Source of the DNA: a virus | Length of the DNA: 64,000 bases | Direction: 5' to 3' (one strand) | IMG/VR virus record: IMGVR_UViG_3300030060_007200 | In this document: positions 33,303-57,008 of the stretch, piece by piece | How the letters are laid out: each line of letters begins with the position of its first letter | How positions within the stretch are numbered: position 1 is the first letter of the stretch | Made by a program: the position numbers and the translations under genes | Notes under the pieces: generated by a model | What the model saw: the letters and a program-made list of their open reading frames with translations, nothing else | Told to the model about the DNA's origin: nothing | The model's database searches: none

Positions 33303-33416
33303 CCCATTCTCTTAAATTCTTTTCAAGCTCTTTATGTCTTTGTCTGTTATCTATATGTGATGCTATTTGACTAGTCACGTATATACCTATTACGACTCCA
33401 ACTCCTATTCCTATAA

Positions 33417-33677: not shown

Positions 33678-33692
33678 AACCGTTTCCTTTTT

Positions 33693-33992: not shown

Positions 33993-33995
33993 ATC

Positions 33996-35933: not shown

Positions 35934-35934
35934 A

Positions 35935-36150
35935 TTAGTTTAATATTGTTTGTCTGTGAACATTTATATGCTCGATTAGTTTTTTACCAAAACGGCTTTC
36001 AATATCAACCTCTTCTGTGATATACCATTTGCCGTGTACATTAGTTACACTGTATATGTTTTCGTATCCATCTGCATCTTTAAGATGTATGTCGTATACA
36101 AATCCATTTTCGTGTCCCATTCCGTTTGTAATTGTTAGTTCTGCTTTCAT
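35935..36150 (-). CDS. Hypothetical protein
   Basis: Intact ORF. Confidence 0.6.
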   Translation of the reverse strand: MKAELTITNGMGHENGFVYDIHLKDADGYENIYSVTNVHGKWYITEEVDIESRFGKKLIEHINVHRQTILN

Positions 36151-36155
36151 AATTT

Positions 36156-38129
36156 TTATTTAGTTGCGAATTTTTTATTAAGTGATTTAGTTAATTGATT
36201 AAGTTGTGTAACAGATATCATTTCTGCATCTTTACCGTACATTTTTTTGAAGTTTTCTCCATCACCACCATAACCACCAGTAACAAAGAAGCTTAGTACC
36301 TTGATACCTCTTGCCTTCATATTGTCAACCTGTGTTTTAGTGTGTTTTTGTGCCTGCTGTCCCCAGTAATTGATATTTTTGTTTTCAAAGTATGGTTCGC
36401 CGTCACTGAAATTGATAAAGTAACTGTCAACACCAGTACCATCAAGTATGTGATTTTGTATAGCCTCAAAACATAATCCTTCAGGTGTTGTACCAGGGCA
36501 AGTAATGTATTTGAAAAGTTTTGTAATTTTTGTAATTTTATCTTTACGTGAATCGTAAGCAATAAATATAGCCGGTATAGTAACAGAGCCAACTTGTTCA
36601 GTGGTTCTGAATGAGATTACAATATCCAAATTAGATACCATAGATGCAGCTTTTGCAATAGCCACAGCTGATGTCATTGAATTGTACCATTTGTCACCAG
36701 ACATAGAGCCTGAAGCATCGATTGAGATATGTGCAATACCTGGTTTGAATTTATCGATAAATGTTTGGCTGAATACCTGTTCGCTGCCAAATCCTAGTGA
36801 TGATATCATTCGCTTATCGATTTTACCTTTTCGAAGTCTTGTATATGTTAATGAATTTGAATCGTTACGAACTTGAAGTTTTTTACCAAGCATTGTACCA
36901 AGTCTGATACCTTTTATAACTGATTCCTGATTTGCCTCTAATCTGTATTCGTATTGATTAGCTGTAATTGTTTCGTAAATATTTGCATCGATAAGAGCTT
37001 GTGTAATATTTTTTACAACCAAGCAATCTGTACCAGTACCTTTTTGATAATAGTTTTTTTGAATTCCATTACCAACAGATTTTATTTCTGAACCAGATTC
37101 CTGTACCGCATCCACCTTTTTCTTATCTGATTTTGAAATTGTTTTCTTTTTAGTTTCGCCATCATTAAATTCGTTTTGCTTTTTGATTGCGTTTCGTAAC
37201 TGATGTTTTTGAGAATTAGTTAAAGGATTTGAAGCACCAGATGAACCATTTTGATTTTGGTTAACCTCGTTTCCATCACCTTCTTTGCCTTTACCATCAT
37301 TACCTTCACCATCTTCATTATCTTCTTCGACAGGTTCCGGTATATAACTTTCAACAATTTTGAATATTTGAAATGCAACATCCAATGAATCCTGAGTTGA
37401 TTTTAATCTGTCAACATTTCTTAAATCCAATAATTTCCAGATATCGTTAAGGCCAGGTAAAGCATTTAGGTCACGATTAGGATTTGTTAAATTGATAATC
37501 CTAAACATGTAAGATTCCCAATCGTTGTTACGCATTTCATCTGATTTAAGACCTTTGTCAACAATTTTTGAATTGAAATATTTATCGTACATTGCCTGGT
37601 AATAACCTTGATAACCAGGTGCCGAACGGTAAACAAAACTATCGATTCGTCTATCTTCTACATAATTAAGAAGAGATTTTACATGATTTCTAATATAATT
37701 ACAAACAATCCATGTTTTATCCTCCAAGTCATCTGCATTTTTAGCATATTTATTAGCTATCATATCGAATATCTCTTGCGGAACTACATTAGGATTATCC
37801 ATTAGATTTTTAAGAATTTTGAAGTCTGTAAGTTTACAGTGTGAACCTTCGTGAAGTGCCAAGCCAACCGTAGGGTCAAAGTCTTTTTCCTTGATGTTAC
37901 CAGATATAACCACCTGTTTACCATCTGTAAAGCTTTCGTCCTTTGAAGAATATGTAACTGGTATAGATTGTCCAGTAACAATATTAACAAAGTTTCCAAT
38001 AGCTCTTTTTGTAGCCGACATCTTTACGTAATCCTTGCCAGGTTTTATTGTTTCGCCTGTAAGAACATCGTAATTATCTGTGTCATCCATCCAGAAGCTT
38101 GAGTTGTTGTATTTTTGCCAGTTTGCCAT
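36156..38129 (-). CDS. CobT-like protein: HExxH metallopeptidase-like N-domain, acidic linker, vWA domain
   Basis: LALHEGSH, NYVEDRRID, E/D/G-rich linker, MIDAS IDASGSM, GTTPEG and NFSDGEP. Confidence 0.9.
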   Translation of the reverse strand: MANWQKYNNSSFWMDDTDNYDVLTGETIKPGKDYVKMSATKRAIGNFVNIVTGQSIPVTYSSKDESFTDGKQVVISGNIKEKDFDPTVGLALHEGSHCKLTDFKILKNLMDNPNVVPQEIFDMIANKYAKNADDLEDKTWIVCNYIRNHVKSLLNYVEDRRIDSFVYRSAPGYQGYYQAMYDKYFNSKIVDKGLKSDEMRNNDWESYMFRIINLTNPNRDLNALPGLNDIWKLLDLRNVDRLKSTQDSLDVAFQIFKIVESYIPEPVEEDNEDGEGNDGKGKEGDGNEVNQNQNGSSGASNPLTNSQKHQLRNAIKKQNEFNDGETKKKTISKSDKKKVDAVQESGSEIKSVGNGIQKNYYQKGTGTDCLVVKNITQALIDANIYETITANQYEYRLEANQESVIKGIRLGTMLGKKLQVRNDSNSLTYTRLRKGKIDKRMISSLGFGSEQVFSQTFIDKFKPGIAHISIDASGSMSGDKWYNSMTSAVAIAKAASMVSNLDIVISFRTTEQVGSVTIPAIFIAYDSRKDKITKITKLFKYITCPGTTPEGLCFEAIQNHILDGTGVDSYFINFSDGEPYFENKNINYWGQQAQKHTKTQVDNMKARGIKVLSFFVTGGYGGDGENFKKMYGKDAEMISVTQLNQLTKSLNKKFATK

Positions 38130-38155
38130 ATAGTTTATGTTTAATGTTTTTGATT

Positions 38156-38200
38156 TATACTATAAATCTACGCAATTTTTCCGATATATAAAAGGATTTT
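38156..38200 (-). promoter_or_regulatory. Early-type promoter (vWA gene)
   Basis: AAAATCCTTTTATATATCGGAAAAATTGCGTAGATTTATAGTATA; boxes at 38210 and 38221. Confidence 0.78.
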
Positions 38201-38223
38201 TGCATAAAGTTATTAACAAGTTA

Positions 38224-38475
38224 TTAACAATTTTTTCTAACAATATTGTAATTCCATAATTCACCACAATCTTCATCTTCATCTACAAGATTTAGCTGCA
38301 AACAAAGGTGATTAGGTAAAATTTCATTGACCTTTACTACATCAGAGTCTGATAATTTTTGCCAATATCCGAATCTTAGTGTAAGTCCAGAATTATTACA
38401 ACCAACCTGTATGTCATTACAGTCGAAGCGGTCTAGCTTGATTGTTGAAAGTGTTTGAATGTTTATTCTATCCAT
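38224..38475 (-). CDS. Hypothetical protein
   Basis: Intact ORF with its own promoter. Confidence 0.65.
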   Translation of the reverse strand: MDRINIQTLSTIKLDRFDCNDIQVGCNNSGLTLRFGYWQKLSDSDVVKVNEILPNHLCLQLNLVDEDEDCGELWNYNIVRKNC

Positions 38476-38491
38476 AGTTAATTTGTTTGAT

Positions 38492-38538
38492 TTATACTAT
38501 AAATCTACGCAATTTTTCCGACATAAAAAAATATTTTA
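38492..38538 (-). promoter_or_regulatory. Early-type promoter
   Basis: TCGGAAAAATTGCGTAGATTTATAGTATA, identical to the core at 38156. Confidence 0.78.
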
Positions 38539-38707
38539 GCAACTTTTTTTGTAAAATATGCTAATTTATATTCAGTCTAAATAAGCTTGAGGAAAGCTTT
38601 CTTTTTGTGCGTAAATATCATCTACATCTTCAACAGTATATGAAGTAGCATAAATATATTCATATATTATTTCCACCTCTTCATTCAATGTAGTTGTTGT
38701 TACCCAA

Positions 38708-38902
38708 TCAATCATATTTATTCTCCACTGTTTTTCTTTTTAATGCGCATTTTTCCATAAGTTTTTTAGTTAATTCGTCACAGCCTTGCCATTTGCCAAA
38801 TAGTACTCTAAAATTATGTATGAAATTATACGCACCTATTATATGCGAGCTGTTATTACAGCTGTATATAACTCTTAGTGCTTTTGTGTATGCTTTTTTC
38901 AT
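38708..38902 (-). CDS. Small hypothetical protein
   Basis: Start moved to MKKAYTKA at 38902, just after a promoter motif at 38903-38940. Confidence 0.55.
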   Translation of the reverse strand: MKKAYTKALRVIYSCNNSSHIIGAYNFIHNFRVLFGKWQGCDELTKKLMEKCALKRKTVENKYD

Positions 38903-43951: not shown

Positions 43952-44809
43952 CTATTCTCCTTTTGAATTTTTTACATATTCTACTTTTATCTTTATTTTT
44001 GGCTCGTAACTATCAGGTGTTCTATCATCGATACCAAAATATTCTGATTTATCTTTATCCATTCTTAATGTAAATTCTAAATCTGTCACATTCATCATTA
44101 GCTGGCCTGTGGTAGAAAGAATATCTTTTTCTGTAGGTCCTTTGACCATATCTACATTTCTATATGGATTGTTTCTCATATTCTTTGCATGATATGCAGA
44201 CAAGCCATTTAATACATCGCTAGGTGTTTTTACCTTTGAAAGCATATCTTGTGCGTATTTCCATCTTAATTCTGATGATTTTTTATTAAGTCCTGAGGTA
44301 TATCCAGAATCATCATAATCATATCCGTGATTTGTTCTCACATGATTATGACCTCTATTTAATTTTTTAATAACTGGCTCGTGTTCAGATGTCATTTCTA
44401 TTGAATATGTATGTTTTGGTGTCGCTACAAATGTATGTCCTTTAACACCAACATCTCTTTTGTCGTCACCTTTGAAATTAACTATTGATAATATTGATTC
44501 AGACGCTTTTCTAAACATAAGAGCTCGTCTTATTTTTTTACCGTCTTCTGATGGCTTGCCTTTTTTCTTTGCTAACTTCTTTTCTTTTTCATCTGCATTT
44601 ACCATAAGAGCAGAATTGATAACAGCAGTACCATAATTATTCATACCTTCTGACCAATCAGTATCTTCGTCAACAATATAAACCATTTCTACATCATTGA
44701 TTAGCTCTCTTACAACTTTAACTCTTGCTGTATAAGAACGGTCTCTATTTTTTGCTAAAATAATTTTATTATTAACAACAGTATGTGCTATTGTACATTC
44801 GTTTATCAT
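43952..44809 (-). CDS. Ntn hydrolase (Cys nucleophile; C45/C59/TANGO2-like) with MINE leader
   Basis: MINE|CTIA..LAKNRDR..EGMNNYG..VRTNH; AAGGAG RBS before the ATG at 44809. Confidence 0.82.
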   Translation of the reverse strand: MINECTIAHTVVNNKIILAKNRDRSYTARVKVVRELINDVEMVYIVDEDTDWSEGMNNYGTAVINSALMVNADEKEKKLAKKKGKPSEDGKKIRRALMFRKASESILSIVNFKGDDKRDVGVKGHTFVATPKHTYSIEMTSEHEPVIKKLNRGHNHVRTNHGYDYDDSGYTSGLNKKSSELRWKYAQDMLSKVKTPSDVLNGLSAYHAKNMRNNPYRNVDMVKGPTEKDILSTTGQLMMNVTDLEFTLRMDKDKSEYFGIDDRTPDSYEPKIKIKVEYVKNSKGE

Positions 44810-44840
44810 TTGCTCTCCTTTATATATAAATATCAAACTA

Positions 44841-45368
44841 CTATTTAACCAGTGAAGTTACAATAGTTGTTTCAGGGTATTTCTTTTTAAGAGCGTCGAC
44901 TGCCTTTATATTTTTAGGTGAATCGTCCATAAAATATATTGGGTCATAACCTTTTTGAATTTCTTTTTCTATATAATCTGCTTTTTTCTGTGGGTCTCCA
45001 CTACCTAATGTAATTACATAAGGCTGAATTCCTATTGATTTGAAGAAAGAGTTAATTGGTGCGCCAAGTCTTCTCGCTGTAAGTATCGTTACTTTTCTAC
45101 CACCTTTCTTTAATTGTTTTTTCAATAAATCTGCATTCTTTTTTATTAACCTGGGATTTCTTATTGGCCTATCAAAATCTCTAAAATCATATGACTGTCC
45201 TTTTTTAAGACCTTTATGCACAGCAAACTGTGCCGCATCCAATGTATCTACAACACTTCCTTCATCGTCAACAACATATACCCATGAATCTGATTTTACT
45301 AATGTATCATCAAAATCAAAAATGCTTAACATTCTTTTTTCTAATAACAGGTCTTTTAATTTAATCAT
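44841..45368 (-). CDS. HAD-superfamily phosphatase (Swiss-Army-knife RNA-repair type) with MIKLKDLLLE leader
   Basis: IFDFDDTL, ILTAR, K and FMDDSPKN. Confidence 0.8.
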   Translation of the reverse strand: MIKLKDLLLEKRMLSIFDFDDTLVKSDSWVYVVDDEGSVVDTLDAAQFAVHKGLKKGQSYDFRDFDRPIRNPRLIKKNADLLKKQLKKGGRKVTILTARRLGAPINSFFKSIGIQPYVITLGSGDPQKKADYIEKEIQKGYDPIYFMDDSPKNIKAVDALKKKYPETTIVTSLVK

Positions 45369-45847
45369 AGATACTTTTTCCAATTCTTTTCAGCATTTCT
45401 AGCTTGTTTTTCCATAGGATTATTTGTATATCCTTTTTCTCTACCTTGCTTTATTTTCTTTGGGTCTTGTGTTGCGTGTGTATATTCATGAAGCATAGCA
45501 CGTATTACATCTTCCTCAGAATTAAGAGCAGCCTTATATAAATATATAGTATTGTCTTCATGTACAAATTCAGCATGCTCGTTTTCACCGCCTGGATAAT
45601 CATCAATTCCACTGTATCTTGCATAAACATTGCTGTGTATTTCGATTTTAGGTGTACCTTTTCTTGCTCTACCTAAATTTTTAACAACCTGAGGATATAT
45701 TCTATTAACGATTTTTAATATATCGTTTTTTGACATTCCTTCTGATAGTATTTCTTTTAATTTTATCATTTTATACGGACAGTTTTTACAACCACAGTTA
45801 CAACAGAATCCTCGATTTAATAAAAATTCTCTTGATAGAGGCTTCAT
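45365..45847 (-). CDS. Zincin-like HExxH protein; N-terminal DUF5522-like Cys cluster and internal MIKLKEILSE leader
   Basis: RGFCCNCGCKNCPY, LHEYTHATQ and NPMEKQA. Confidence 0.72.
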   Translation of the reverse strand: MKPLSREFLLNRGFCCNCGCKNCPYKMIKLKEILSEGMSKNDILKIVNRIYPQVVKNLGRARKGTPKIEIHSNVYARYSGIDDYPGGENEHAEFVHEDNTIYLYKAALNSEEDVIRAMLHEYTHATQDPKKIKQGREKGYTNNPMEKQARNAEKNWKKYL

Positions 45848-46036
45848 TTATTCCCATTTTCTTTCGTATTTTTCTCGTTGGTCAACAAGAACATATTCGA
45901 CAATATCATTTTTGCCACAGTGAGGACAGTTTAATCTTTCTAAATTAGTTGCCTCGTTTATCTTCCACTCACCTTTACACGTTTTGTCACTGCACTTATA
46001 GATATATGTGTGTCGTATAAATACTTTGTGTCCCAT
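45848..46036 (-). CDS. Small zinc-ribbon protein
   Basis: YKCSDKTCKGEW..LNCPHCG; start moved to 46036 to avoid overlap. Confidence 0.65.
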   Translation of the reverse strand: MGHKVFIRHTYIYKCSDKTCKGEWKINEATNLERLNCPHCGKNDIVEYVLVDQREKYERKWE

Positions 46037-46040
46037 TTTA

Positions 46041-46604
46041 CTACCATTTTCTACATGACCAGTAACGAGCTTTCGTTTTAGGTCCAGGATTATCACAGTT
46101 GTGTCTTGCTCTAAATGATTTACGTCTTTCAGGATTGTTCTTTTTGATTCTGTTCTCTGCACCTTTTGCACCAAAACTAACTTTCTTTACCTTGTCTCCA
46201 TCTTTAACGTATACCTTAAATTTACTATTACCATCACCTTGCATAGGTTTGTTGAGTTTAACTTTACGACCTTGATATTCAGCTTCTGAGATGCGTTTAA
46301 CAGCTTCAACTAACCATTCTGTAAAGCAACCGATGTCTTCCTTTTTAACAAAAAGTTCATTTTCTGTAATATTATTTATTACCTCATCTAGCTTTCCTTC
46401 GAAAAAATACATATCTCTTTGCATCCAACCATCAAGGTTTTCCCATTTACCATCAACCAAATCGTAATCAATATCATCTGGGTCTTTTACTACAGAAAGC
46501 ATTGCCTGCTCTCTTTCGTCTTCGCTGGCTTTTTTCCACCATTTTTTGGTAACTTTTACACCTTTACCAACTCTTCGTTCATTAAGAATTTGTTTTAGCT
46601 TCAT
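46041..46604 (-). CDS. Putative head-internal protein with MKLKQILNE leader
   Basis: C-terminal basic domain KKVSFG..RRKSFRARHNC..KARYWSCRKW; several x-x-E sites. Confidence 0.7.
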   Translation of the reverse strand: MKLKQILNERRVGKGVKVTKKWWKKASEDEREQAMLSVVKDPDDIDYDLVDGKWENLDGWMQRDMYFFEGKLDEVINNITENELFVKKEDIGCFTEWLVEAVKRISEAEYQGRKVKLNKPMQGDGNSKFKVYVKDGDKVKKVSFGAKGAENRIKKNNPERRKSFRARHNCDNPGPKTKARYWSCRKW

Positions 46605-47577
46605 AATATCTCCATAATTCTTTTCCTAGTTTTTTACCAAATAAAGAATCTGATAAAAAATGTTGTTTTGCAATATTTCTACTATATGATATTTCCTCTG
46701 CAATTTTCAAAAAACGCATTTTATGCTCAGGATAAATATCACCTAACACATAAGCTAATAAATAACCTTGCGCTGAATGACCACTTGGATATGATGGTGT
46801 CATTGCACTATCGAGAGGTTGGTCATGAAATTTAAGACCATACGATTTAGCAACTTGTACAGGTCTAGGTCTATTGTAATGATATTTCAATGATTTAATT
46901 ATCCATCTTGTTTGTTTCATAACATTTTTCATTAAGTCATAAGAAACATTTATATTTAAGTCTTGAGTTCTTTCAATGAAATATTTTTTTATTTTGTCTG
47001 CCTTTAATACAAATTCAGGATTAGGTTTTAATTTATCGATTTGCATTAACTCTTTTCTTGTTTCTATTGAATCGTTAGGTGGAAATGGAAGATTGTGAAA
47101 GTTACTGATAGGAAATTCTTTCCATGCACCTTTTTTATCTGACATGTGACTGATGGCCTTTTCATCAGGTTCGCCAAATTTTATGTCATTTCTTCCTTCA
47201 GTTACCTTATCAGGAAGCTCCTCATAATCTTTCTTAGTCATTTTACTATCCATTTTCTTTGCAGCTTTTGGGTCTGTCGCAAACATAAATCTTTGTTGTG
47301 CCTTGCTAGCAAATTTTTCAAAAAGAAATGAATGTACACCACCTCCTGTACCAATACTAGACCATTTGTCATGTTTTATTTTTATTGAAGGATATAATTT
47401 TTTTATTGATTTAATTACATCCTTTGGATTTACCTTATATCCATAAAACACACTCATACCATTTTTATTCAGTTTCGTAACTTTAGGTCTTGTTCTTCCT
47501 GAATAATCAATAGATAATTGATATGAAATATCTTTTTTATTTATCTTTTCAAATAATATGTTTTGTAATTTAATCAT
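46582..47577 (-). CDS. PAP2/vanadium-haloperoxidase-family phosphatase with MIKLQNILFE leader
   Basis: KYHYNRPRP, PSYPSGHS and SR..A..HF.SD. Confidence 0.85.
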   Translation of the reverse strand: MIKLQNILFEKINKKDISYQLSIDYSGRTRPKVTKLNKNGMSVFYGYKVNPKDVIKSIKKLYPSIKIKHDKWSSIGTGGGVHSFLFEKFASKAQQRFMFATDPKAAKKMDSKMTKKDYEELPDKVTEGRNDIKFGEPDEKAISHMSDKKGAWKEFPISNFHNLPFPPNDSIETRKELMQIDKLKPNPEFVLKADKIKKYFIERTQDLNINVSYDLMKNVMKQTRWIIKSLKYHYNRPRPVQVAKSYGLKFHDQPLDSAMTPSYPSGHSAQGYLLAYVLGDIYPEHKMRFLKIAEEISYSRNIAKQHFLSDSLFGKKLGKELWRYYEAKTNS

Positions 47578-47915
47578 CGGTTTAAGTATTGTCGCCATTT
47601 ACTATAATCAGGTGCCATATTAGTTCCACCAACATTAACATTAGCTTTTAATTTATCTTGAGCATCTAAGTAAGTTGTACGTCCACTTGTGATTTGAAAA
47701 GCAAATTTCTTTTTAAGGTTAACAGCAAATAGACCACCAGGCAGACCAATTAAGAATGTACCTTTAGGAACTTTGGCATAACTTTTACCAGCCATTTGTG
47801 TTCCTACACCAGGAATACCACCAGCTGGACGAGTATTATATTTTACCATTGCATCTTTTAATATGATAGCTTGGAAGTTAATTCCTTCTCTTAATATGTC
47901 TTTTAATCTTGCCAT
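47574..47915 (-). CDS. Hypothetical protein with MARLKDILRE leader
   Basis: Leader motif; intact ORF. Confidence 0.65.
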   Translation of the reverse strand: MARLKDILREGINFQAIILKDAMVKYNTRPAGGIPGVGTQMAGKSYAKVPKGTFLIGLPGGLFAVNLKKKFAFQITSGRTTYLDAQDKLKANVNVGGTNMAPDYSKWRQYLNR

Positions 47916-47916
47916 T

Positions 47917-48426
47917 TTATTTTCCTCTTACTTTTTTAGCCAAGTCTTTATCTGCCTTACCCCAAGTACCAGGACTCTTTGTTGTAAATGAATTTACTCG
48001 AGCATATCCCCATTGTTGTTGAGTTGCACCAGGTCTATGTCCAGTTTTCCATGCAGCCATACCTCTGTTAAATACCTGCTTTAATATACCAAAAGGCATA
48101 CCTGATTTTTCAGCCTTCTTTTTAAGACCTTTTTTAACAGCAGCGCTCATTTCGTTAATACCTTTTGACATTTTATATACTTCTTTTATGGTTTTCCAAC
48201 CGGATTCACCATACATCTGCTTGAATTTTTTTGTATGTGTCGACACTTTTGTTTTCTCCCCTTTATCACTTCTAAAATCTTTATATGCATCAGGGTCATC
48301 GTCATCCATTTTACTTCTTTTTGCGATAACTCTTTCGCGTTCTTCTTTATCGTCTTTTGATAAACCTTTGAAATATGTAGGGTCTTTTTCTGGTGTTGCA
48401 GCTTCAGCTAATTTTTTTAATTTCAT
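47917..48426 (-). CDS. Basic protein with MKLKKLAE leader (DUF5824-like)
   Basis: LKKKAEKSG..RGMAAWKTGHRPGATQQQWGYARVNSF..ADKDL. Confidence 0.7.
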   Translation of the reverse strand: MKLKKLAEAATPEKDPTYFKGLSKDDKEERERVIAKRSKMDDDDPDAYKDFRSDKGEKTKVSTHTKKFKQMYGESGWKTIKEVYKMSKGINEMSAAVKKGLKKKAEKSGMPFGILKQVFNRGMAAWKTGHRPGATQQQWGYARVNSFTTKSPGTWGKADKDLAKKVRGK

Positions 48427-48893
48427 GAGTGTGCCTCGTGTATGTATCTTGTCTTACCATTAACTCGCTTTGCAATTGTTAATTTCTTTCTGTTTTCTCT
48501 ATGTGTCACATAGCTAACATGAATCCAGTTAGGATTTTTATCATCACCGAACTCCCAAATTAACTGGTCAAAATCTAAATTATCTTTTATGTAATGATAC
48601 ATCTCTGCATTTGTTTTATATCCAAAAGTATCATCTAAATCTAAAGCCTGTCCTTTCATATGTTGAGAATATTTTGAACCACCAATTGCAGTGTTAACTG
48701 GTTCGCCTCTGAAAAAGCTATTTATTTTTATAGGTCCGCCAACCCATTCTCTTAATGGCTCAAACAAACCTTCTGCTATTTCTTTCATGCATTTTATTTG
48801 GTCTTCATTTGGTGTGTTATCAAGACCTCTTCTTAATGCAGTGTTACTATGTGTACCTTCTTTCCAACTTACGTGTTTACTAAATCTTTCCAT
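48423..48893 (-). CDS. Peptidase M15 (peptidoglycan endopeptidase, probable endolysin)
   Basis: INSFFR, SQHMKGQALD and WIHVS. Confidence 0.88.
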   Translation of the reverse strand: MERFSKHVSWKEGTHSNTALRRGLDNTPNEDQIKCMKEIAEGLFEPLREWVGGPIKINSFFRGEPVNTAIGGSKYSQHMKGQALDLDDTFGYKTNAEMYHYIKDNLDFDQLIWEFGDDKNPNWIHVSYVTHRENRKKLTIAKRVNGKTRYIHEAHS

Positions 48894-49126
48894 TATTTCC
48901 CCTTAATTTTTTCAAATGCACTAATACCAAAACAGCCTAGTGTTACCATAACAAAAGAATTATATATCGTATCATTGATTTCTAGTTGACCACCTCCTAC
49001 ATATCCCATAAACCATATACCAGTAACCAAATCAGCCACTGCAAATAACACCATTACTGCAAAAGATACAAATCCAACTATATTCTTTTCATTGATATTA
49101 TTTTTATCTCTAAATATTTTCCACAT
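48893..49126 (-). CDS. Two-TM membrane protein (holin candidate)
   Basis: Two TM segments; directly upstream of the M15 peptidase. Confidence 0.55.
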   Translation of the reverse strand: MWKIFRDKNNINEKNIVGFVSFAVMVLFAVADLVTGIWFMGYVGGGQLEINDTIYNSFVMVTLGCFGISAFEKIKGK

Positions 49127-49485
49127 TAGAATCCCTCCATTATGATTTCATCTATTTTAGCCTGTACTTCTTTTTGTGTTGCTTCCATTGTCATCATAAT
49201 GTTGGCTTGAAACCTTGCAACTTCTTCTCCATCATTATATATTACAATTGTTGGTACTACTACAATTTTATACTTTGCTGCAGCCTTTTGGTCTGCTGCG
49301 ATATCTATAAATTTTGTATCACATTCTTTTAATTTACCTACCCAAGGTACTTTATTTTGAGCATTGAAACTTGCATTGAACTGTACGACACATAACCCAT
49401 CAGTCTTGCAGGGTGTCTGGCCTACAGCAGATGTAACAAATAACCAAAATAATATTACTAATAAATATGCTAGTTTTCTTTTCAT
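49126..49485 (-). CDS. Exported thioredoxin-fold protein lacking CxxC
   Basis: Signal SAVG|Q; VVQFNASFN in place of WCxxC; YKIVVVPTIVIYNDGEEVARF. Confidence 0.78.
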   Translation of the reverse strand: MKRKLAYLLVILFWLFVTSAVGQTPCKTDGLCVVQFNASFNAQNKVPWVGKLKECDTKFIDIAADQKAAAKYKIVVVPTIVIYNDGEEVARFQANIMMTMEATQKEVQAKIDEIIMEGF

Positions 49486-49784
49486 TTATCAAGCTCCTCA
49501 ATTTTTTCTAAAATATCATTGATATGTATTTTTATTGTATCGACCTCATACTGAGTCTGTTGAATGATTTGAAACATACTGTCTTGATATTGTATATCTT
49601 CTTGTGTAGGTATCCAGATTTCAGATTCTGGTTCTTTCTCGATTACTTTTATTTCTTCTTTTGGTGATGCAGAAATAACTCCTGCTACAACTATTCCACT
49701 AATAAAAACGGCTATCATTACCATTATAGAGCTTTTTGATGTTAAGCATATTTTTTTACAAAATATTTCGTTAAGTCTTTTCAT
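49482..49784 (-). CDS. Membrane-anchored coiled-coil protein
   Basis: TM segment followed by an acidic coiled coil. Confidence 0.6.
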   Translation of the reverse strand: MKRLNEIFCKKICLTSKSSIMVMIAVFISGIVVAGVISASPKEEIKVIEKEPESEIWIPTQEDIQYQDSMFQIIQQTQYEVDTIKIHINDILEKIEELDK

Positions 49785-50068
49785 TATCTTAATTTATCTA
49801 TCTTTTCTTCTAAACGCTTTATAGATTCTTTTAATTCTTTAACATCTTCTTGTGTAGTCATAATTGTCTGTCTAACTAATTGGTCTTTCATGTCAAATTC
49901 CATTCTAGTTATTTCTGCAGGTGGAGGTACAGGTAATTCTTTTGCCTCTTGTATATCTGCTTGAAGAGCGAACCACATACCTACAATAGTAAATATTAGT
50001 ACTGCTATACCTGCTAGCGTTTTTATACTGATATTAAAACTAGTTTCTTCGTTAAGTTGCTTCGCCAT
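49784..50068 (-). CDS. Single-TM coiled-coil protein
   Basis: TM segment, PVPPP linker and coiled coil. Confidence 0.65.
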   Translation of the reverse strand: MAKQLNEETSFNISIKTLAGIAVLIFTIVGMWFALQADIQEAKELPVPPPAEITRMEFDMKDQLVRQTIMTTQEDVKELKESIKRLEEKIDKLR

Positions 50069-50078
50069 TCTTATTCCC

Positions 50079-51134
50079 CTAAAATACTCTATAATTTATC
50101 CCAGCACTAAATCCGTGCCATGTTCTGTTCCAATATTTATTATATGTTCCTTCTACAAAAAGTCCTAAATTTTTACTTAACCAGTGTCCGAAAATAACAC
50201 CTCCTGAATAATCTATCCATTGGCCTCCATTAAAATTGTAATAACTAAATTCATTTTCATCATCACTGTAATGTAATGGCATTACGTTGCCCCAAGCATG
50301 TAGCCAACTAGATTTTGTATATTTGTAATAATCAAATCCTGCTACCCATGAATGTGTCCACTGAATAGGTAACTCATCTCTTTTCTTTTCTGTATAATTA
50401 GCCAGTGCTTGTGGTATTACAACTGCTTCCCATACTTCTGAACTTGTAGCTACTGAAATACCTGCAGGGTCAAAATATTCTGCACCACCTTGTCCATCAA
50501 ATTCTACTGTATACCCTTCTTGTAAAGCTAATTGAGTATAGTGTAGATTGCCTGTTGATAATTTCCATTCTTCTAATGGGTCATATCCATAAGGCTCTGA
50601 CATTCTTTGAGCTATACCAATATTAAGTGATATGCCTTTCCATTGTTTTCTTAGTCTTTGAGAAGATTCAAAATATTGTACATCAGCAAATCCATCTTTA
50701 AGATATTCAACCTTAGCAAGCCATTTATCATCAATATATCTTATCATATGATTAAGGTCAAAATATTCCTGACCTTGTTGTCTTTTATATTCATGTTGAA
50801 ATAAAAATTCAACCTCGTTTTTCCATAAACCTTCAGTAGCGCCATCACTAAACGAAGCCTCCAAACCTCTTTTGAAAGCCTCTTTTGGTTCATATCCAAA
50901 TCTTTTTATCTTTCTAACACCAAGTATAAGTGAGTAGTCATAAGGAGTTTTAATTGTAGATGTCTCCAAACCATTTGTAACGCTGTATACATCTACATCT
51001 GAAATAGAATTACCACCGTTTACGGCACCATAAAGAGTAGAATATTTGAAAAAGTCTTTAACTTGGCCGCAACATTCTTTTGGTGCAGCGCAAGATGCTA
51101 AAACAACTAATAATAAAAGCAATATTTTTTTCAT
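50079..51134 (-). CDS. Putative outer-membrane beta-barrel protein
   Basis: MKKILLLLLVVLASC signal/lipobox, aromatic-rich strands and C-terminal AGINYRVF. Confidence 0.7.
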   Translation of the reverse strand: MKKILLLLLVVLASCAAPKECCGQVKDFFKYSTLYGAVNGGNSISDVDVYSVTNGLETSTIKTPYDYSLILGVRKIKRFGYEPKEAFKRGLEASFSDGATEGLWKNEVEFLFQHEYKRQQGQEYFDLNHMIRYIDDKWLAKVEYLKDGFADVQYFESSQRLRKQWKGISLNIGIAQRMSEPYGYDPLEEWKLSTGNLHYTQLALQEGYTVEFDGQGGAEYFDPAGISVATSSEVWEAVVIPQALANYTEKKRDELPIQWTHSWVAGFDYYKYTKSSWLHAWGNVMPLHYSDDENEFSYYNFNGGQWIDYSGGVIFGHWLSKNLGLFVEGTYNKYWNRTWHGFSAGINYRVF

Positions 51135-51145
51135 AATTATTATCC

Positions 51146-51382
51146 CTATTTTGTCATTCTTTGTGTCCAATCTTTTAGCTTATCCTGCAGTTGTTTTTTA
51201 ATTCCAGGTCCTCTAAAAGTTCCGCCTATCTTCATTGCGTCTTTGATAAAGCTATTATATTCTTTGTTCCATTTTACTACCAAAGTTTTTTCAAAATCAT
51301 TTAATAATTTTGCTCGCTCTTTGTCTTCGCCTTTTGAGATTGTTCCGTCAGGATTAGCCTCAATAATTTTTTTTAATTTCAT
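51146..51382 (-). CDS. Small protein with MKLKKIIE leader
   Basis: Leader motif. Confidence 0.6.
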   Translation of the reverse strand: MKLKKIIEANPDGTISKGEDKERAKLLNDFEKTLVVKWNKEYNSFIKDAMKIGGTFRGPGIKKQLQDKLKDWTQRMTK

Positions 51383-54300
51383 TGTTTTATCACCCTTGTT
51401 GTAAATCTTTTGTTATTATATATAAGTATCAAGTTATATACACCATTACTGTAATTTGATAAATCTATTCTTTTAGATTTTTCTCTTGTCATTAACTTAC
51501 CTTGTAAATTGTATATTTCAACCTCCACATCCAATCTTGTATCTATATTTAATACATCGCCTGTTGGATTTGGATAAACCATAATTCCCATAGATGTTAT
51601 ATCTTCAACATTTGTTGGCCAACCTAATTGGCAATAATCATACATTGATATACATGATGCATCCCAATCTGTAGTACAGCAATAGTCGTCTACTGATATC
51701 ACCCAAGCATAACATCCATCATTTAACCAATAAGGTATACCAGGCCCTCCATAACATCCTGCATCGTATAAACATGCTGTAGAATCAGTTACATTTGCCA
51801 GTGGATTGTAATTATATGCCGCTACATCTGTACAACCTGAAACAATTTCGATACATGAATTATCATCAAAGCATGCTGCCGGGTCATAATTCAATGCTGT
51901 AGGGTCAGTACAACCTGAAATATAACAACATGTATTATCAGATGTGTTTGCCAATGGATTGTAGTTTAATGCTACTGGGTCGTTACATCCGTATACAAAA
52001 GGTTCACATGAACCGTTATCAACATTAGCCAATGGATTATAGTTCCACATTGTCGAATCTGTACAACCATAAATTGGTAAAATACAGCTAAAATCATCTG
52101 TGTTTGCAAGTGGGTCGTAATTTAATGCTGATGGGTCTGTACAACCGTAAACAATAGATTGACAAGTGCCATTATCTGTATTAGCTAATGGGTCATAATT
52201 AAATGCCGTTGAATCCATACATCCATATATAAACGGTATACAATTTCCTGATGATGTATTTGCTGTTGGGTCGTAGTTCCACATTGTATTATCCATACAT
52301 CCAATTATTACAGGAATACAACTACCATCATTTGTATTTGCTGTTACATCATAATTAAACATTGTTGGGTCTGTACAACCGTAAATATAAGGTATGCAAG
52401 AACCATCATCTGTGTTAGCTGTTAAACTATAATTATACATTGTTGAATCAGTACAGCCGTATACAATACCTACACATGTTCCGTCATCATCTGTAGCAGC
52501 AGGATTAAAGTTTATTGAAAGTGGATTTGTACAACCTGCAATTTCCAATTCATCGCAAACTCCATCACCATCTGTATCTAATATACAAGCTCCATAACAA
52601 TCATAATATTGAACTGGATATGTACAACCTCCATTATCTACATTTGCAATTGCGTCGTAATTACAAGCTGTTACATCTGTACAGCCTAAATAAATACAAG
52701 AACCATCATCTACATTTGCTAATGGATTGTAATTATATCCTATAGAATCCATACAGCCATTCACAATTGGAATACATGAATTATCATCTACTGTTGCTAA
52801 TGAATCATAATTAAGAGCAAATTCATTTGTACAGCCATATATAATAGGAATACAATTGCCATCATCAGTATTTGCCAGTGGGTCGTAATTTGCTGCTGTT
52901 GAATCCATACAGCCTAATATTACTGGTACACAAGTATTACCACAAAATGGAATACCTACATATTTTGTCCAGAAAGGAGATTCAAAAGATTGTAAAGCTC
53001 CTTGACCGTTATTAGCAAAAGGATTTTGTCCTTCATGCATTAAAACAAAGCCATCTGCATTTGTTAATTTGAATGAGTTATGCCAAGTTTGAAATTGAAC
53101 CTCTTGCGGTGGTTGTTGTGGTCCACCTACTTCAAAATAAAATACTTCAACTGGAATTCCTGGGTCTAAAATAATATTCCATGAACCACCATAATTACCA
53201 GGTCCCATTGTATATGTACCAATTATCAATCCGTTTTGATAAACTCCTATATAAGAATTACCCCAACCATCTCCTGCAGCATCGAATATTTCTAATAAAT
53301 AATTACAGTCAGGTATTAAATCCATCATTGTTGCTGCTGGGTCATAATTAAATGCAGCTGGGTCTGTACAGCCGTATGTATGTAATGTTGCACATGAACT
53401 GTCATCTACTGTCGCAGCAGGATTAAATTCTACGTAATCATCATCTGTACATCCTGGTATTGGAGGTATTATAGGACAAGGTGTTGCCATTTGCTGGCCT
53501 GAATACAATACGGAACCAAAACCTGGATTGTCCATATACCAAATTGTATCACCATCACAGTCGTATATAACAATAGCTCCATCCATCGAACCACCTGAAG
53601 TAGAGCCTGCCATACCGTCACCAAAATCATCGTTAACAATAAGTTCGAATCCTGCAGTTTGGTCTACACAGAAAGTATAAGTGTATGTTTGTCCGATATC
53701 GTTAAAATCATATGTTCCTACTGTAGCTTCATCAATAACTCCTAAACTATTCATTATCCACGATGTTTCTCCTGGCCAATTATCTAGTGTAATTTCCATT
53801 GTTATTTGATATTGAGTTGCAGTATCACAAGATGTACCTGCACAACTTCCATCATCATATGTAGCCCATGGGTTATATGATATTTGAGTAGGGTCTGTAC
53901 AACCTGATATACAAGAAGTAGGTGTGTAAGCTATTGTATCTGATAAACTACCATCTAAAAATTCTACCCAACCATAATGTTCTACTGACCAGTTAGGTGG
54001 CATCTGACCGTTACCTGCGTAAACTGCAAAGTCTAATGAGTTAGGACCAAGTCCATACTGAAAAGGACCTGCGCCATTTTCATTGGAATACCAGAATTTT
54101 ACAGGTGTACAATTTGTATTGCTATCAAGAGTCCAGTTAAAAAGTACAAGTGTTTGTCCACCTGGTAAGCAATTTTGTGATGCTGTAGAAGTTAAAAAAC
54201 CCTGACATGGGTCAAATTGACAAATGCTAGGGTCAGAAATATATGCTGTTGAGTCATAATTTAATGCTGAAGGGTCTGTACAACCTACTGTTGGTGGAGC

Positions 54301-54678
54301 ACAAGGAGCAGTTGTTAATGTTTCTACCAAACTATCTCCAAAATTACCTGCAGCATACATTAAAGTATCTTGGCATGAATTGCTAATTAAAAACCATCCA
54401 TCAGTCCCACCCCATTGAGATGCAGCTAATCCATCACCATAACTATCGTATATACTTGCAATAAAAGTACCTTGTATAGGAATGATAGTATCATATAATG
54501 TATTAGGTAACATACCACTATCATTTTGCAAAATAATTGGTGAGCCTCCTGGAGGTGTGATATCCCAACTTGTTTCAGAAGGATAATTGTCTGTTAATAA
54601 TTGTACGTGAATCCAACTGTCAATTTGTGAAAATACAACCGTTGGTATAACCATTAGTAAAAATACTAGTTTTTTCAT
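51379..54678 (-). CDS. T9SS type A sorting-domain protein with about 18 GC(T/M)D Cys repeats
   Basis: Signal VFS|Q; repeats GCTDxxAxNYDPxAxxDDGSC; C-terminal VYPNP..YNLQGK..IDLSNYSNGVY..RVIKQ. Confidence 0.9.
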   Translation of the reverse strand: MKKLVFLLMVIPTVVFSQIDSWIHVQLLTDNYPSETSWDITPPGGSPIILQNDSGMLPNTLYDTIIPIQGTFIASIYDSYGDGLAASQWGGTDGWFLISNSCQDTLMYAAGNFGDSLVETLTTAPCAPPTVGCTDPSALNYDSTAYISDPSICQFDPCQGFLTSTASQNCLPGGQTLVLFNWTLDSNTNCTPVKFWYSNENGAGPFQYGLGPNSLDFAVYAGNGQMPPNWSVEHYGWVEFLDGSLSDTIAYTPTSCISGCTDPTQISYNPWATYDDGSCAGTSCDTATQYQITMEITLDNWPGETSWIMNSLGVIDEATVGTYDFNDIGQTYTYTFCVDQTAGFELIVNDDFGDGMAGSTSGGSMDGAIVIYDCDGDTIWYMDNPGFGSVLYSGQQMATPCPIIPPIPGCTDDDYVEFNPAATVDDSSCATLHTYGCTDPAAFNYDPAATMMDLIPDCNYLLEIFDAAGDGWGNSYIGVYQNGLIIGTYTMGPGNYGGSWNIILDPGIPVEVFYFEVGGPQQPPQEVQFQTWHNSFKLTNADGFVLMHEGQNPFANNGQGALQSFESPFWTKYVGIPFCGNTCVPVILGCMDSTAANYDPLANTDDGNCIPIIYGCTNEFALNYDSLATVDDNSCIPIVNGCMDSIGYNYNPLANVDDGSCIYLGCTDVTACNYDAIANVDNGGCTYPVQYYDCYGACILDTDGDGVCDELEIAGCTNPLSINFNPAATDDDGTCVGIVYGCTDSTMYNYSLTANTDDGSCIPYIYGCTDPTMFNYDVTANTNDGSCIPVIIGCMDNTMWNYDPTANTSSGNCIPFIYGCMDSTAFNYDPLANTDNGTCQSIVYGCTDPSALNYDPLANTDDFSCILPIYGCTDSTMWNYNPLANVDNGSCEPFVYGCNDPVALNYNPLANTSDNTCCYISGCTDPTALNYDPAACFDDNSCIEIVSGCTDVAAYNYNPLANVTDSTACLYDAGCYGGPGIPYWLNDGCYAWVISVDDYCCTTDWDASCISMYDYCQLGWPTNVEDITSMGIMVYPNPTGDVLNIDTRLDVEVEIYNLQGKLMTREKSKRIDLSNYSNGVYNLILIYNNKRFTTRVIKQ

Positions 54679-54821
54679 ATTTCAAACCCCAAATTACATA
54701 TCATAAATCGAAATTTACCTTTTTCGACCTTTATTTCTAATACTGTAAAAGTACCAAGTCTAAATGTTAGACTGTACTTCTCTTTTTTATTTCCTGCGTC
54801 AAAGCCGTTAATCCAATTCAT
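54675..54821 (-). CDS. Small hypothetical protein (48 aa)
   Basis: Hand-translated MNWINGFDAGNKKEKY..RFMICNLGFEI; coupled to the T9SS gene start. Confidence 0.55.
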   Translation of the reverse strand: MNWINGFDAGNKKEKYSLTFRLGTFTVLEIKVEKGKFRFMICNLGFEI

Positions 54822-54968: not shown

Positions 54969-55358
54969 TTAATCTCCAAATACTTTTTTCTTGCCACCGT
55001 GGTATTCATAAGCATGACCTTCGGCTTTAAGTGTTTCGTTTATATTATATTGTTTACCGTCCTTATCCTGTATAAATATCTCACCTAAAACTCGGCCATA
55101 TTTTCCAACACCATGACTTTTTAATCTAAAGTAGCCAGCCTTGTCGCTGACCTCCATTAGTAATTCTTTATTACGAGCCTTAGCCTCCAAACCTTTTGCT
55201 TTTTCTGCCAAGTCTCTTGTTCTACTTTCCCAAGTATCTATGCCTGTATATCGAATTCTTTTCTTAACCCAAATATCAAAGCCAACATCTATAAGAGCAT
55301 CGATAGTATCTCCATCGACAACTCGTTCTAGCTTTCCTCTATAAATATATTTGTCCAT
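54969..55358 (-). CDS. Thermonuclease (SNase-like)
   Basis: RVVDGDTID, RIRYTGIDTWES and GKYGRVLG. Confidence 0.9.
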   Translation of the reverse strand: MDKYIYRGKLERVVDGDTIDALIDVGFDIWVKKRIRYTGIDTWESRTRDLAEKAKGLEAKARNKELLMEVSDKAGYFRLKSHGVGKYGRVLGEIFIQDKDGKQYNINETLKAEGHAYEYHGGKKKVFGD

Positions 55359-55585
55359 TACTTTATATTTTTCTTTAAGTAAGCAACGCAAAAATTTAAT
55401 AATTCTTTTCTTGCTGGAGCTATATCACCTTTTTCAGTCATAGGACCAGTTTTCCATTCAACCCATCCTTCTACTATAGTTTCTAAACCTTCTTCCATAC
55501 CAGGCATAAGCTCGATATATTCCTCGTTGATTTTTTCTTCGTTTATCTTTCTCAACCAAGCATGTGTGTTAAATTCTTTTGCCAT
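55358..55585 (-). CDS. Small protein with INE|EKINE|E leader
   Basis: Tandem INE motifs. Confidence 0.6.
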   Translation of the reverse strand: MAKEFNTHAWLRKINEEKINEEYIELMPGMEEGLETIVEGWVEWKTGPMTEKGDIAPARKELLNFCVAYLKKNIK

Positions 55586-56958: not shown

Positions 56959-57008
56959 CGGGATTTCTCCTTTTGTAACGTTAGTACTATTATGATATAA
57001 ATATCAAA

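What the first reader, a model, noticed from the sequence alone, without database searches (positions are those of the whole stretch)
48423..54821. Phage-encoded T9SS substrate within an envelope module (beta-barrel, redox-dead thioredoxin, TM coiled coils, M15 peptidase)
Seen, in transcription order: a 1099-aa protein with Sec signal, about 18 Cys-rich GCTD repeats and a type A CTD; one small leader-bearing gene; an outer-membrane barrel; two TM coiled-coil proteins; an exported Trx fold without CxxC; a 2-TM protein; and an M15 endopeptidase. Established: type A CTDs route proteins through the Bacteroidota T9SS to the cell surface. Inference: the phage uses host T9SS and BAM to build a surface structure on the infected cell (receptor masking, adhesion or grazer avoidance), or this is an atypical spanin-like lysis module.
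Basis: partly seen in the sequence, partly recalled or inferred. Interest (0 to 1): 0.8.

Follow-up and report, generated by a model that had tools for sequence, protein, structure and literature searches.

The report
Phage envelope module with T9SS cargo
An uncultured marine phage of Bacteroidota carries, just upstream of its cell-bursting genes, a conserved phage-only set of four exported proteins (a cysteine-rich fibre tagged for the host's type IX secretion system, an outer-membrane barrel, an inner-membrane helical protein and an inactive thioredoxin); the set is common in ocean viral DNA and its job is untested.

Summary
The 1099-aa protein (T) has a Sec signal, 18 GCTD repeats, 60 Cys and a type A T9SS sorting domain above the curated cut-offs. 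The 351-aa protein (B) folds as a 12-strand outer-membrane barrel. The thioredoxin fold (X) lacks CxxC. The M15 peptidase is endolysin-like. Two listed genes are not part of the unit: the small 'leader-bearing' gene carries a capsid-targeting-type leader, and the second coiled-coil gene occurs in only 8 of 80 related loci.

The real unit is four genes: barrel B, TM coiled coil C, dead thioredoxin X and T9SS cargo T. All four occur in 32 of 32 related viral contigs with enough flank. Their order is always a rotation of B-C-X-T. In 28 of 32 contigs they lie directly upstream of holin-like or endolysin genes of differing families. The barrel profile matched none of 300 other Bacteroidia genomes. 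T's beta-sandwich domain is a common accessory module of host T9SS cargo.

My best reading (about 0.4) is a late, lysis-linked envelope device acting on the outer membrane or cell surface. Surface remodelling alone is the main rival. Phage T9SS cargo (Bellas 2020) and phage outer-membrane proteins are already published; this linked set is not in the papers I could search. The scan had already found the same module in other genomes (e1-5784260, e1-5726111).

The parts
54675..54821 (-). g48: 48-aa beta-rich peptide with no signal. A frequent companion placed before the module in several gene orders.
   Evidence: tblastn finds it in 10 of 80 loci: before T (window, L001, L002), before C in the CXTB loci (L038, L059, L060), and elsewhere in L018 and L078.
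51379..54678 (-). T: 1099-aa T9SS type A cargo. It has a Sec signal and three beta-sandwich domains of about 110-125 aa. The 18 GCTD repeats include tandem runs between aa 589 and 974. A conserved Cys module (YCCxxxWDxxCxxxYxYC, aa 999-1016) precedes the sorting domain.
51382..51579 (-). Type A C-terminal sorting domain of T (aa 1034-1099).
   Evidence: PF18962 matches at 4.9e-11 and TIGR04183 at 1e-11, both above curated cut-offs and covering the full profile. 25 of 40 distinct relatives also match.
51146..51382 (-). g78: small gene with an MKLKKIIEA leader (capsid-targeting type). Not a module member.
   Evidence: No hydrophobic segment. Present in 4 of 80 loci. The same leader type is seen on g169, g187, g160, g180 and g113.
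50079..51134 (-). B: 351-aa outer-membrane 12-strand beta-barrel. In this window it has a lipobox plus a C-A-A-P-K-E-C-C-G-Q motif.
   Evidence: AF2 model mc0485b0282ba. VIA Z is 14.0 to EstA, 13.0 to NalP, 12.9 to Tsx and 12.8 to KdgM. No Pfam match for any of 62 members. Present in 80 of 80 loci.
49784..50068 (-). C (cc94): bitopic inner-membrane protein with a Pro-rich linker and a periplasmic helix. It is the most conserved member of the module.
   Evidence: One TM segment. Mean column identity is 71% over 42 sequences. 23 of 42 members match phrog_1009, of unknown function.
49482..49784 (-). cc100: second TM coiled-coil protein, a distant paralogue of C and an accessory gene.
   Evidence: hhalign against the C profile gives 75.7% probability and E 2.4e-5. 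Present in 8 of 80 loci.
49126..49485 (-). X: exported thioredoxin fold without CxxC.
48893..49126 (-). tm77: 77-aa protein with two hydrophobic segments. A holin candidate, or a fifth module member.
   Evidence: No holin family match. It lies just before the endolysin-type gene in many loci and goes with full-length sorting domains.
48423..48893 (-). M15 peptidoglycan peptidase (endolysin).
   Evidence: PF08291 at 2.1e-13 and phrog_894 at 5.2e-26.
56991..57004 (-). Late-type promoter-like motif (ATATTTATATCATA) before g457. It is the nearest such site upstream of the module.
   Evidence: The motif ATATTTATATATAA stands before tail and baseplate genes and before g294. There are 11 sites against 2.1 expected.

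Best explanation
This is a phage-only four-gene envelope module built into the lysis region.

Shown:
- T, B and X carry Sec-type signals of the Bacteroidota kind, ending before Gln.
- T ends in a type A T9SS sorting domain.
- B is a 12-strand outer-membrane barrel.
- C is a bitopic inner-membrane protein with a periplasmic helix.
- X is a thioredoxin fold without active-site cysteines.
- The four genes are always linked and almost always sit just upstream of holin-like and endolysin genes.

Inferred:
- Late in infection the host Sec, BAM and T9SS machines place the four proteins across the envelope.
- C in the inner membrane and B in the outer membrane form a periplasm-spanning pair with a spanin-like layout.
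- X acts as a non-redox binding partner or holdase, either for that pair or for the 60-Cys cargo.
- T coats the surface as a disulfide-stiffened fibre made of binding-type modules.
- When the holin fires and the M15 enzyme cuts the wall, the device acts on the outer membrane or cell surface. It would either help rupture it or condition the debris so that progeny are not lost on it.
For: - All four genes are present in 32 of 32 loci with at least 6 kb of flank on both sides of the barrel. The order is always a rotation of B-C-X-T: BCXT 21, CXTB 6, TBCX 5.
- 24 of 32 loci have an endolysin-type gene and 28 of 32 a lysin or holin-like gene downstream on the same strand. Often it begins 3-60 nt after the block. 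Two unrelated lysin families are used (M15; phrog_33083-like at 9e-18) and two holin-like families (tm77; phrog_3427 at 2e-30).
- In the window the genes overlap or abut from g457 to M15, behind a motif also found before tail and baseplate genes.
- B is the only lipobox-bearing ORF on the coding (minus) strand between 40 and 60 kb of the window, and it lies next to two TM coiled-coil genes.
- The module occurs in at least two phage backgrounds, next to replication genes in L016 and next to a 2300-aa protein in L043. It therefore moves as a unit.
- The barrel profile has no match in 300 other Bacteroidia genomes, and B, C and X have no match in 50,697 deposited phage records.
Against: - No function was tested.
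- C has no cysteine, whereas intermolecular disulfides are proposed as general for two-component spanins (PMC6139136).
- C is far more conserved (71% column identity) than I would expect of an i-spanin (my own knowledge).
- 38 of 62 barrels lack a lipobox, and a 330-aa barrel is unlike any known o-spanin.
- L032 and L034 carry a separate Rz-like gene after the endolysin (phrog_739, 1.3e-5).
- A fibre of 600-1400 aa has no known role in lysis.
- Adjacency may reflect only shared late timing.
- The late motif is not conserved in the other loci.
Confidence: 0.4

Rival explanations
1. Surface remodelling only. T is displayed through the host T9SS as an adhesin or receptor mask, serving superinfection exclusion, protection of progeny from debris, or attachment of the infected cell. 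B anchors it in the outer membrane, and C and X help its folding or delivery. The position next to the lysis genes reflects only late co-expression.
For: - T has a full type A sorting domain.
- T has no catalytic domain. It is built of beta-sandwich modules, which in host genomes are accessory parts of T9SS-secreted proteases and sortilin-type proteins. The domain is found in 107 of 301 Bacteroidia genomes.
- T is the most variable member in length (600-1400 aa) and in N-terminal domains.
- More than 3,800 homologues exist, and nearly all of the top 120 carry PF18962.
- A precedent exists: variable phage-encoded T9SS cargo (PMC7468147).
Against: - 15 of 40 distinct relatives keep only a roughly 37-aa tail that Pfam does not recognise, yet B, C and X stay linked to them.
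- Late expression leaves little time for exclusion functions.
- The reading does not explain why an inner-membrane coiled coil is the most conserved part.
Confidence: 0.3
2. A private export or anchoring route. B is an autotransporter-like or usher-like 12-strand channel or anchor for T. X is T's periplasmic chaperone and C a membrane tether. This would make T partly or wholly independent of the T9SS, above all in the short-tail forms.
For: - The best fold matches of B include autotransporter beta-domains: EstA Z 14.0, NalP 13.0, AaaA 12.6.
- T is strictly linked with B, C and X.
- A Cys module just before the tail is conserved in both long- and short-tail forms.
- The same unusual lipobox-PKKCC[SG]Q signal appears on B and on some T proteins, in L020 and L073.
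Against: - The fold matches are generic for 12-strand barrels: Tsx, KdgM and NanC score within 1.3 Z of the best.
- No Pfam autotransporter match was found.
- A folded, disulfide-rich passenger of about 1000 aa is not expected to pass a 12-strand pore (my own knowledge).
- 25 of 40 relatives keep a complete T9SS signal.
Confidence: 0.15
3. Nutrient capture. B is a small solute channel of the Tsx or KdgM type and T a glycan-binding capture protein. Together they would boost uptake during infection, as an auxiliary metabolic module.
For: - B resembles Tsx (Z 12.9), KdgM (12.8) and NanC (12.7).
- The best, though weak, fold match of T's domain is a calcium-dependent carbohydrate-binding module (2xhh, Z 6.5).
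- A preprint reports transport genes beside 10- to 22-strand phage outer-membrane proteins (10.64898/2026.10.24.761521).
Against: - No transporter or catabolic gene lies beside the module; the neighbours are lysis genes.
- Z 6.5 is within the noise range stated by the tool.
- Late expression gives little time for a metabolic gain.
Confidence: 0.08
4. Assembly chimera or host gene wrongly joined to phage DNA.
For: T's domains have host relatives. Nine matches to the barrel lie in bacterial or archaeal MAGs.
Against: - The same gene set is flanked by phage genes in dozens of independent contigs from different samples.
- The MAG hits are assigned to unrelated taxa (Parvibaculum, Nitrosopelagicus, Woesearchaeota), as expected of mis-binned viral contigs.
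- Composition and strand bias are continuous across the region.
Confidence: 0.01

Closest known systems
Phage-encoded T9SS type A cargo of 'Cryophage' (Bellas et al. 2020, PMC7468147)
   Same: A phage of a Bacteroidota-type host encodes proteins ending in a type A sorting domain. The cargo genes vary strongly between related phages.
   Different: The Cryophage cargo are enzymes or PA14 proteins (endoglucanase, GH39). They are not reported with a linked barrel, coiled coil and thioredoxin. Here the cargo has no catalytic domain and is locked into a four-gene set beside the lysis genes.
Two-component spanins (lambda Rz/Rz1, T4 PseT.3/PseT.2; Kongari et al. 2018, PMC6139136)
   Same: An inner-membrane protein with an N-terminal TM segment and a periplasmic coiled coil is encoded next to an outer-membrane protein, which here carries a lipobox. 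Both lie beside holin-like and endolysin genes.
   Different: The outer-membrane partner is a 330-aa beta-barrel, not a small Pro-rich lipoprotein, and 38 of 62 relatives have no lipobox. C has no cysteine and is unusually conserved. Matches to Rz-like families are only weak (E 0.03-0.055).
Phage-encoded outer-membrane beta-barrel proteins of large phages (Yuan and Chen, bioRxiv 10.64898/2026.10.24.761521)
   Same: A phage gene for a Sec-exported outer-membrane barrel with envelope-related neighbours. That survey counts 12-strand forms among 1,603 phage outer-membrane proteins.
   Different: That survey reports mostly host-derived barrels with transport neighbours. This barrel family had no relative in the host genomes searched and no Pfam match, and its neighbours are C, X, T and lysis genes.
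Host T9SS cargo of Bacteroidia (secreted trypsin-like and S8 proteases, sortilin/BNR proteins)
   Same: They share the Sec signal with Gln at the cleavage site, the unannotated beta-sandwich domain (D-x-[YW]-P-x-E-[TS]-x-W ... [YF]-G-D-G) and the type A sorting domain.
   Different: The host proteins carry a catalytic or BNR domain, and none of the six host loci examined contains a B, C or X gene. The phage protein consists only of accessory modules and GCTD repeats.
T4 Imm/Sp and T5 Llp (exclusion and receptor-masking proteins; my own knowledge, not tested here)
   Same: These are small phage membrane or periplasmic proteins that change the infected cell's envelope towards other phages or towards the phage's own progeny.
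   Different: There is no sequence or fold relation, and T4 imm and sp are early genes. This is a functional analogy only.

Membership tests
T9SS type A CTD cargo (TIGR04183 / PF18962) | C-terminal sorting domain matching the family model above its curated cut-off, placed at the very end of the protein | tested here: met
   PF18962 scores 43.2 bits (cut-off 27) over aa 1034-1097 of 1099. TIGR04183 scores 44.6 bits (cut-off 23) over profile positions 1-72 of 72.
T9SS type A CTD cargo (TIGR04183 / PF18962) | N-terminal Sec signal peptide | tested here: met
   A hydrophobic N-terminus ends in VVFSQ. All complete relatives show the same kind of start. No dedicated signal-peptide predictor was available.
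T9SS type A CTD cargo (TIGR04183 / PF18962) | Sorting domain kept across the family | tested here: inconclusive
   25 of 40 distinct relatives match PF18962. The other 15 have a roughly 37-aa tail that aligns collinearly with the domain's later strands only weakly (hhalign E 0.022).
T9SS type A CTD cargo (TIGR04183 / PF18962) | Secretion that depends on the host T9SS | not testable with these tools
   The host is unknown and no genome is held for the window. This needs expression in wild-type and T9SS-mutant Flavobacterium.
Two-component spanin | i-spanin: N-terminal TM segment with a periplasmic coiled-coil domain | tested here: met
   cc94 and cc100 each have one TM segment and a C-terminal heptad helix. 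There are weak matches to coiled-coil families only.
Two-component spanin | o-spanin: small outer-membrane lipoprotein with a lipobox | tested here: not met
   The only lipobox ORF nearby is the 351-aa barrel. 38 of 62 distinct barrels have no lipobox.
Two-component spanin | Periplasmic cysteines for intermolecular disulfides (proposed as general in PMC6139136) | tested here: not met
   cc94 contains no cysteine.
Two-component spanin | Genes beside the holin and endolysin | tested here: met
   28 of 32 full loci have a holin-like or lysin gene just downstream.
Two-component spanin | Sequence match to known spanin families | tested here: inconclusive
   phrog_739 and phrog_7686 (Rz-like) match 4 and 2 of 42 members at E 0.027-0.055. 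The main match is phrog_1009, of unknown function.
Thioredoxin superfamily | Thioredoxin fold recognisable by profile | tested here: met
   The family profile matches thioredoxin 2vim at E 1.4e-9, with 193 PDB sequences at E up to 1.
Thioredoxin superfamily | CxxC active site | tested here: not met
   All 55 aligned sequences have F-N-A-x-[WF]-N-x-x-N, or a gap, at that place.
Outer-membrane beta-barrel protein | Signal peptide, closed antiparallel barrel and C-terminal aromatic residue | tested here: met
   12 strands in the AF2 model, pLDDT 75.8. Z is 12.7-14.0 to solved 12-strand barrels. The family consensus ends N-Y-x-I-F.
Autotransporter (type Va) | Passenger domain fused to the barrel, and a match to PF03797 | tested here: not met
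   B has no passenger domain (351 aa, with the barrel starting at aa 33). None of 62 members matches any Pfam family consistently.
T9SS barrel partners PorV / PorP-SprF / PorQ | Sequence or fold match to those families | tested here: inconclusive
   No Pfam match at E up to 1. FadL-type barrels score only Z 7.9-8.3, and no T9SS chain is among the top 50.
Peptidase M15 endolysin | Match to PF08291 above cut-off, with the zinc ligands H-x6-D and a later H | tested here: met
   50.8 bits against a cut-off of 23.2, and phrog_894 'endolysin' at 5.2e-26. The motifs Q-H-M-K-G-Q-A-L-D and W-I-H-V are present in the translation.
Class II holin | Small protein with two TM segments and a charged C-terminus, next to the endolysin | tested here: inconclusive
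   The layout fits, but no holin family matches. L019 and L078 carry both tm77 and a phrog_3427-type holin.

The most novel reading that the evidence does not exclude
B, C and X form a new kind of periplasm-spanning machine of Bacteroidota phages. An integral outer-membrane barrel, rather than a lipoprotein, would be coupled to an inner-membrane coiled coil and a non-redox thioredoxin. The machine would replace or assist spanins in breaching the outer membrane and would be functionally tied to a T9SS-delivered surface fibre. It would be the first phage system to link the type IX secretion pathway to host lysis or virion release.
Probability: 0.25. Interest if true: 0.85.

Novelty: new variant of a known kind. 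Interest (0 to 1): 0.62.

Why it matters
How phages of Bacteroidota get through the outer membrane at lysis is poorly known. In this window I found no o-spanin-like lipoprotein besides the barrel itself. The four-gene set is abundant in ocean viral DNA: at least 150 viral contigs carry the barrel and thousands of homologues of the cargo exist. It was not found in the host genomes searched or in deposited phage genomes, and it moves as a unit between phage lineages.

If it acts in lysis, it defines a new outer-membrane step. If it acts in surface display, it shows phages using the host T9SS to re-dress infected cells late in infection. Either way it gives a concrete gene set that can be expressed in Flavobacterium johnsoniae and tested. 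It also flags an unannotated beta-sandwich domain that is widespread in host T9SS cargo.

Tried and rejected
- DNA and protein searches of 50,697 deposited phage records: no match for the region, B, C or X. T gave only one weak repeat hit.
- The closest cultured relatives by baseplate protein, Flavobacterium phages vB_FspM_immuto (42% identity), showed no tblastn match to the barrel.
- Pfam, NCBIfam and PHROGs gave nothing for B, nothing useful for tm77, and only unknown-function families for C.
- The ESM Atlas gave only viral clusters without a Pfam family for B. Its nearest named clusters (autotransporter, PF24653 Phage_OMP) scored 0.93-0.94 with low feature counts, so they are leads only. 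PF24653 is mentioned in no searchable paper.
- The barrel profile against 1.84 billion representatives gave a closed family of about 407 clusters, many of them fragments. Two distant members lie on contigs too short to give context.
- Fold search of T's domain gave no Foldseek match at E up to 0.001 and a best VIA Z of 6.5, so I claim no fold assignment beyond a beta-sandwich.
- T4's late motif TATAAATA is absent on the coding strand between 42 and 59.6 kb. The generic sigma-70 and terminator scan was at chance level.
- This phage's own late-type motif is not kept in the related loci.
- cc100 is not the Rz-like gene of L034 (BLASTP E 0.17).
Full report
**Setting.** The window has about 33% G+C and nearly all long ORFs lie on the minus strand. 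It carries baseplate-wedge and DNA-ligase genes of phage type. Its baseplate protein is 42% identical to that of Flavobacterium phages vB_FspM_immuto. No whole genome is held for it. Earlier notes of this scan call it a T4-type marine phage of Bacteroidota.

**The observation.** The stretch 48423-54821 holds nine tightly packed or overlapping genes.
- T (1099 aa) has a hydrophobic N-terminus, 18 GC[TMN][DN] repeats (mostly of 26 aa) and 60 cysteines. Its C-terminal domain passes the curated cut-offs of both PF18962 and TIGR04183.
- B starts most plausibly at the ATG at 51134. It has a lipobox (LASC) and ends in Phe. With a 62-sequence alignment it folds as a 12-strand barrel (pLDDT 75.8). The best structural matches are 12-strand outer-membrane barrels of several unrelated functions: EstA Z 14.0, NalP 13.0, Tsx 12.9, KdgM 12.8, NanC 12.7. 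The fold is therefore clear and the function is not.
- cc94 and cc100 each have one TM segment and a heptad helix.
- X is a thioredoxin by profile (E 1.4e-9 to 2vim). It has W-N-x-x-N, or a gap, in place of WCGPC, and it keeps the cis-Pro.
- tm77 has two hydrophobic segments.
- The last gene is an M15 peptidase of an endolysin family.

The 78-aa gene is different. It has no hydrophobic leader but an MKLKKIIEA start. Similar starts occur on g169, g187, g160, g180 and g113, and other notes of the scan read them as capsid-targeting leaders.

**What the unit is.** The barrel recovers at least 150 marine viral contigs, of which 80 were kept.
- By tblastn, B is in 80, cc94 in 78, X in 75 and T in 70 of these loci. 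tm77 is in 36, M15 in 15, cc100 in 8 and g78 in 4.
- With profile searches, all 32 loci that have 6 kb or more on both sides of the barrel carry B, C, X and T. The order is always a rotation of B-C-X-T: 21 BCXT, 6 CXTB and 5 TBCX.
- The set lies in different backgrounds: after replication genes in L016 and after a 2300-aa protein in L043. It therefore moves as a cassette.
- C is the most conserved member (71% mean column identity), followed by B (59%), X (46%) and the last 110 residues of T, the only part of T aligned across the family (42%).
- cc100 is a distant paralogue of C.

**Origin.** The barrel profile matched none of 300 other Bacteroidia genomes. Its few matches in MAGs lie in bins assigned to unrelated taxa, which fits mis-binned viral contigs. 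B, C and X have no match in deposited phage records.

T's beta-sandwich domain (AF2 pLDDT 92) is the opposite case. It occurs in 107 of 301 Bacteroidia genomes; one of these, G181, is an unpublished genome. In four of the six host proteins examined it sits in Sec-signal proteins that end in a type A sorting domain, namely trypsin-like and S8 proteases and a sortilin-type protein. T thus looks like a host-type T9SS cargo reduced to its accessory modules. The domain's fold matches are weak (best Z 6.5, to a calcium-dependent carbohydrate-binding module). Binding of a glycan is therefore only a lead.

**A complication.** 15 of 40 distinct relatives of T end in a tail of about 37 aa that lacks the YPNP half of the sorting domain, and Pfam does not recognise it. 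It aligns collinearly with the later strands only weakly (E 0.022). The Cys module just before the tail is kept in all forms. tm77 goes with the long form: long tail with tm77 11, long without 6, short with 1, short without 16. This count is not corrected for shared ancestry.

**Link to lysis.** Downstream of the block and on the same strand, 24 of 32 full loci have an endolysin-type gene, either M15 or a family matching phrog_33083 'endolysin' at 9e-18. In all, 28 of 32 have a lysin or a holin-like gene, either tm77 or a phrog_3427 holin at 2e-30. This gene often starts within 60 nt of the block's end. Because different lysin and holin families are involved, the link is not a single inherited arrangement.

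In the window, the motif ATATTTATATATAA precedes tail and baseplate genes and g294. A one-mismatch copy precedes g457. From there to M15 the genes overlap or abut. Late co-transcription is therefore likely here. B is the only lipobox ORF on the coding strand between 40 and 60 kb.

Several points argue against a simple spanin reading:
- 38 of 62 barrels lack a lipobox.
- C has no cysteine.
- L032 and L034 have a separate Rz-like gene.

**Literature.** Bellas et al. 2020 described phage-encoded T9SS cargo as a unique occurrence. A 2026 preprint catalogues 1,603 phage outer-membrane proteins. Kongari et al. 2018 define spanins. The Gln rule for Bacteroidota signal peptides is cited in PMC10367356. 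I found no paper describing this four-gene set. The scan itself has met the same module in other genomes and reached a similar verdict there.

**Verdict.** It is phage-specific, abundant and tied to the lysis region. The most likely role is a late envelope device acting at the outer membrane or cell surface around lysis (0.4). Surface display alone (0.3) and a private export or anchoring route (0.15) are the main rivals.

Noticed in passing
window 43952-51382 (g294, g180, g160, g187, g338, g113, g169, g78): Many unrelated small genes around the module start with M-x-K-L-K-x-[IL]-[LI]-x-E or a close variant. One is a soluble PAP2-family phosphatase (PF01569, 1.7e-13). This looks like a capsid-targeting leader on packaged proteins.
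   Followed up: partly
window 27267-38902 and 7089-18771: Two recurrent upstream motifs. A long early-type box (…TCGGAAAAATTGCGTAGATTTATAGTATAAAT…) precedes at least six genes between 27 and 39 kb. A late-type box (ATATTTATATATAA) precedes tail and baseplate genes (11 sites against 2.1 expected).
   Followed up: partly
L020:3870-7220, L073:10005-13178 and 23 of 62 barrels: An unusual signal is shared by barrels and by some T proteins: a perfect lipobox followed by x-x-P-K-[KE]-C-C-[SGA]-Q. It could be a lipoprotein with two extra cysteines, or a long signal-peptidase I signal obeying the Gln rule.
   Followed up: no
L064:9703-10473 and L064:13946-14356 (minus strand): Between X and T lies a run of four or five tiny, extremely basic ORFs (37-90 aa, Lys/Arg-rich). 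Nearby on the other strand is a 136-aa protein with a signal and a C-terminal Phe that looks like a small 8-strand outer-membrane protein.
   Followed up: no
L043:1073-7975 and L088:144-7922: In some lineages the barrel follows a giant 2300-2600-aa protein that contains an HAD-like segment similar to window gene g180. The module is therefore shared with a different phage type.
   Followed up: no
G107:C5 (L105), G144:C4 (L101) and 105 other Bacteroidia genomes: The beta-sandwich domain of T (D-x-[YW]-P-x-E-[TS]-x-W … [YF]-G-D-G) has no Pfam model. It is nevertheless common in host secreted proteases and sortilin-type proteins; in four of the six examined it lies N-terminal of a T9SS sorting domain, directly before it in two. 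One matching genome, G181, is unpublished.
   Followed up: partly
window 54969-55391 (g140) and 17 related loci: A staphylococcal-nuclease homologue (PF00565, 1.6e-7) without a signal often lies beside the module.
   Followed up: no
L034:10647-11331: After the endolysin-type gene comes a TM coiled-coil gene matching Rz-like spanins (phrog_739, 1.3e-5). A second, signal-bearing ORF without a lipobox overlaps its 3' part in another frame. This has a spanin-like architecture but a non-lipoprotein partner.
   Followed up: partly
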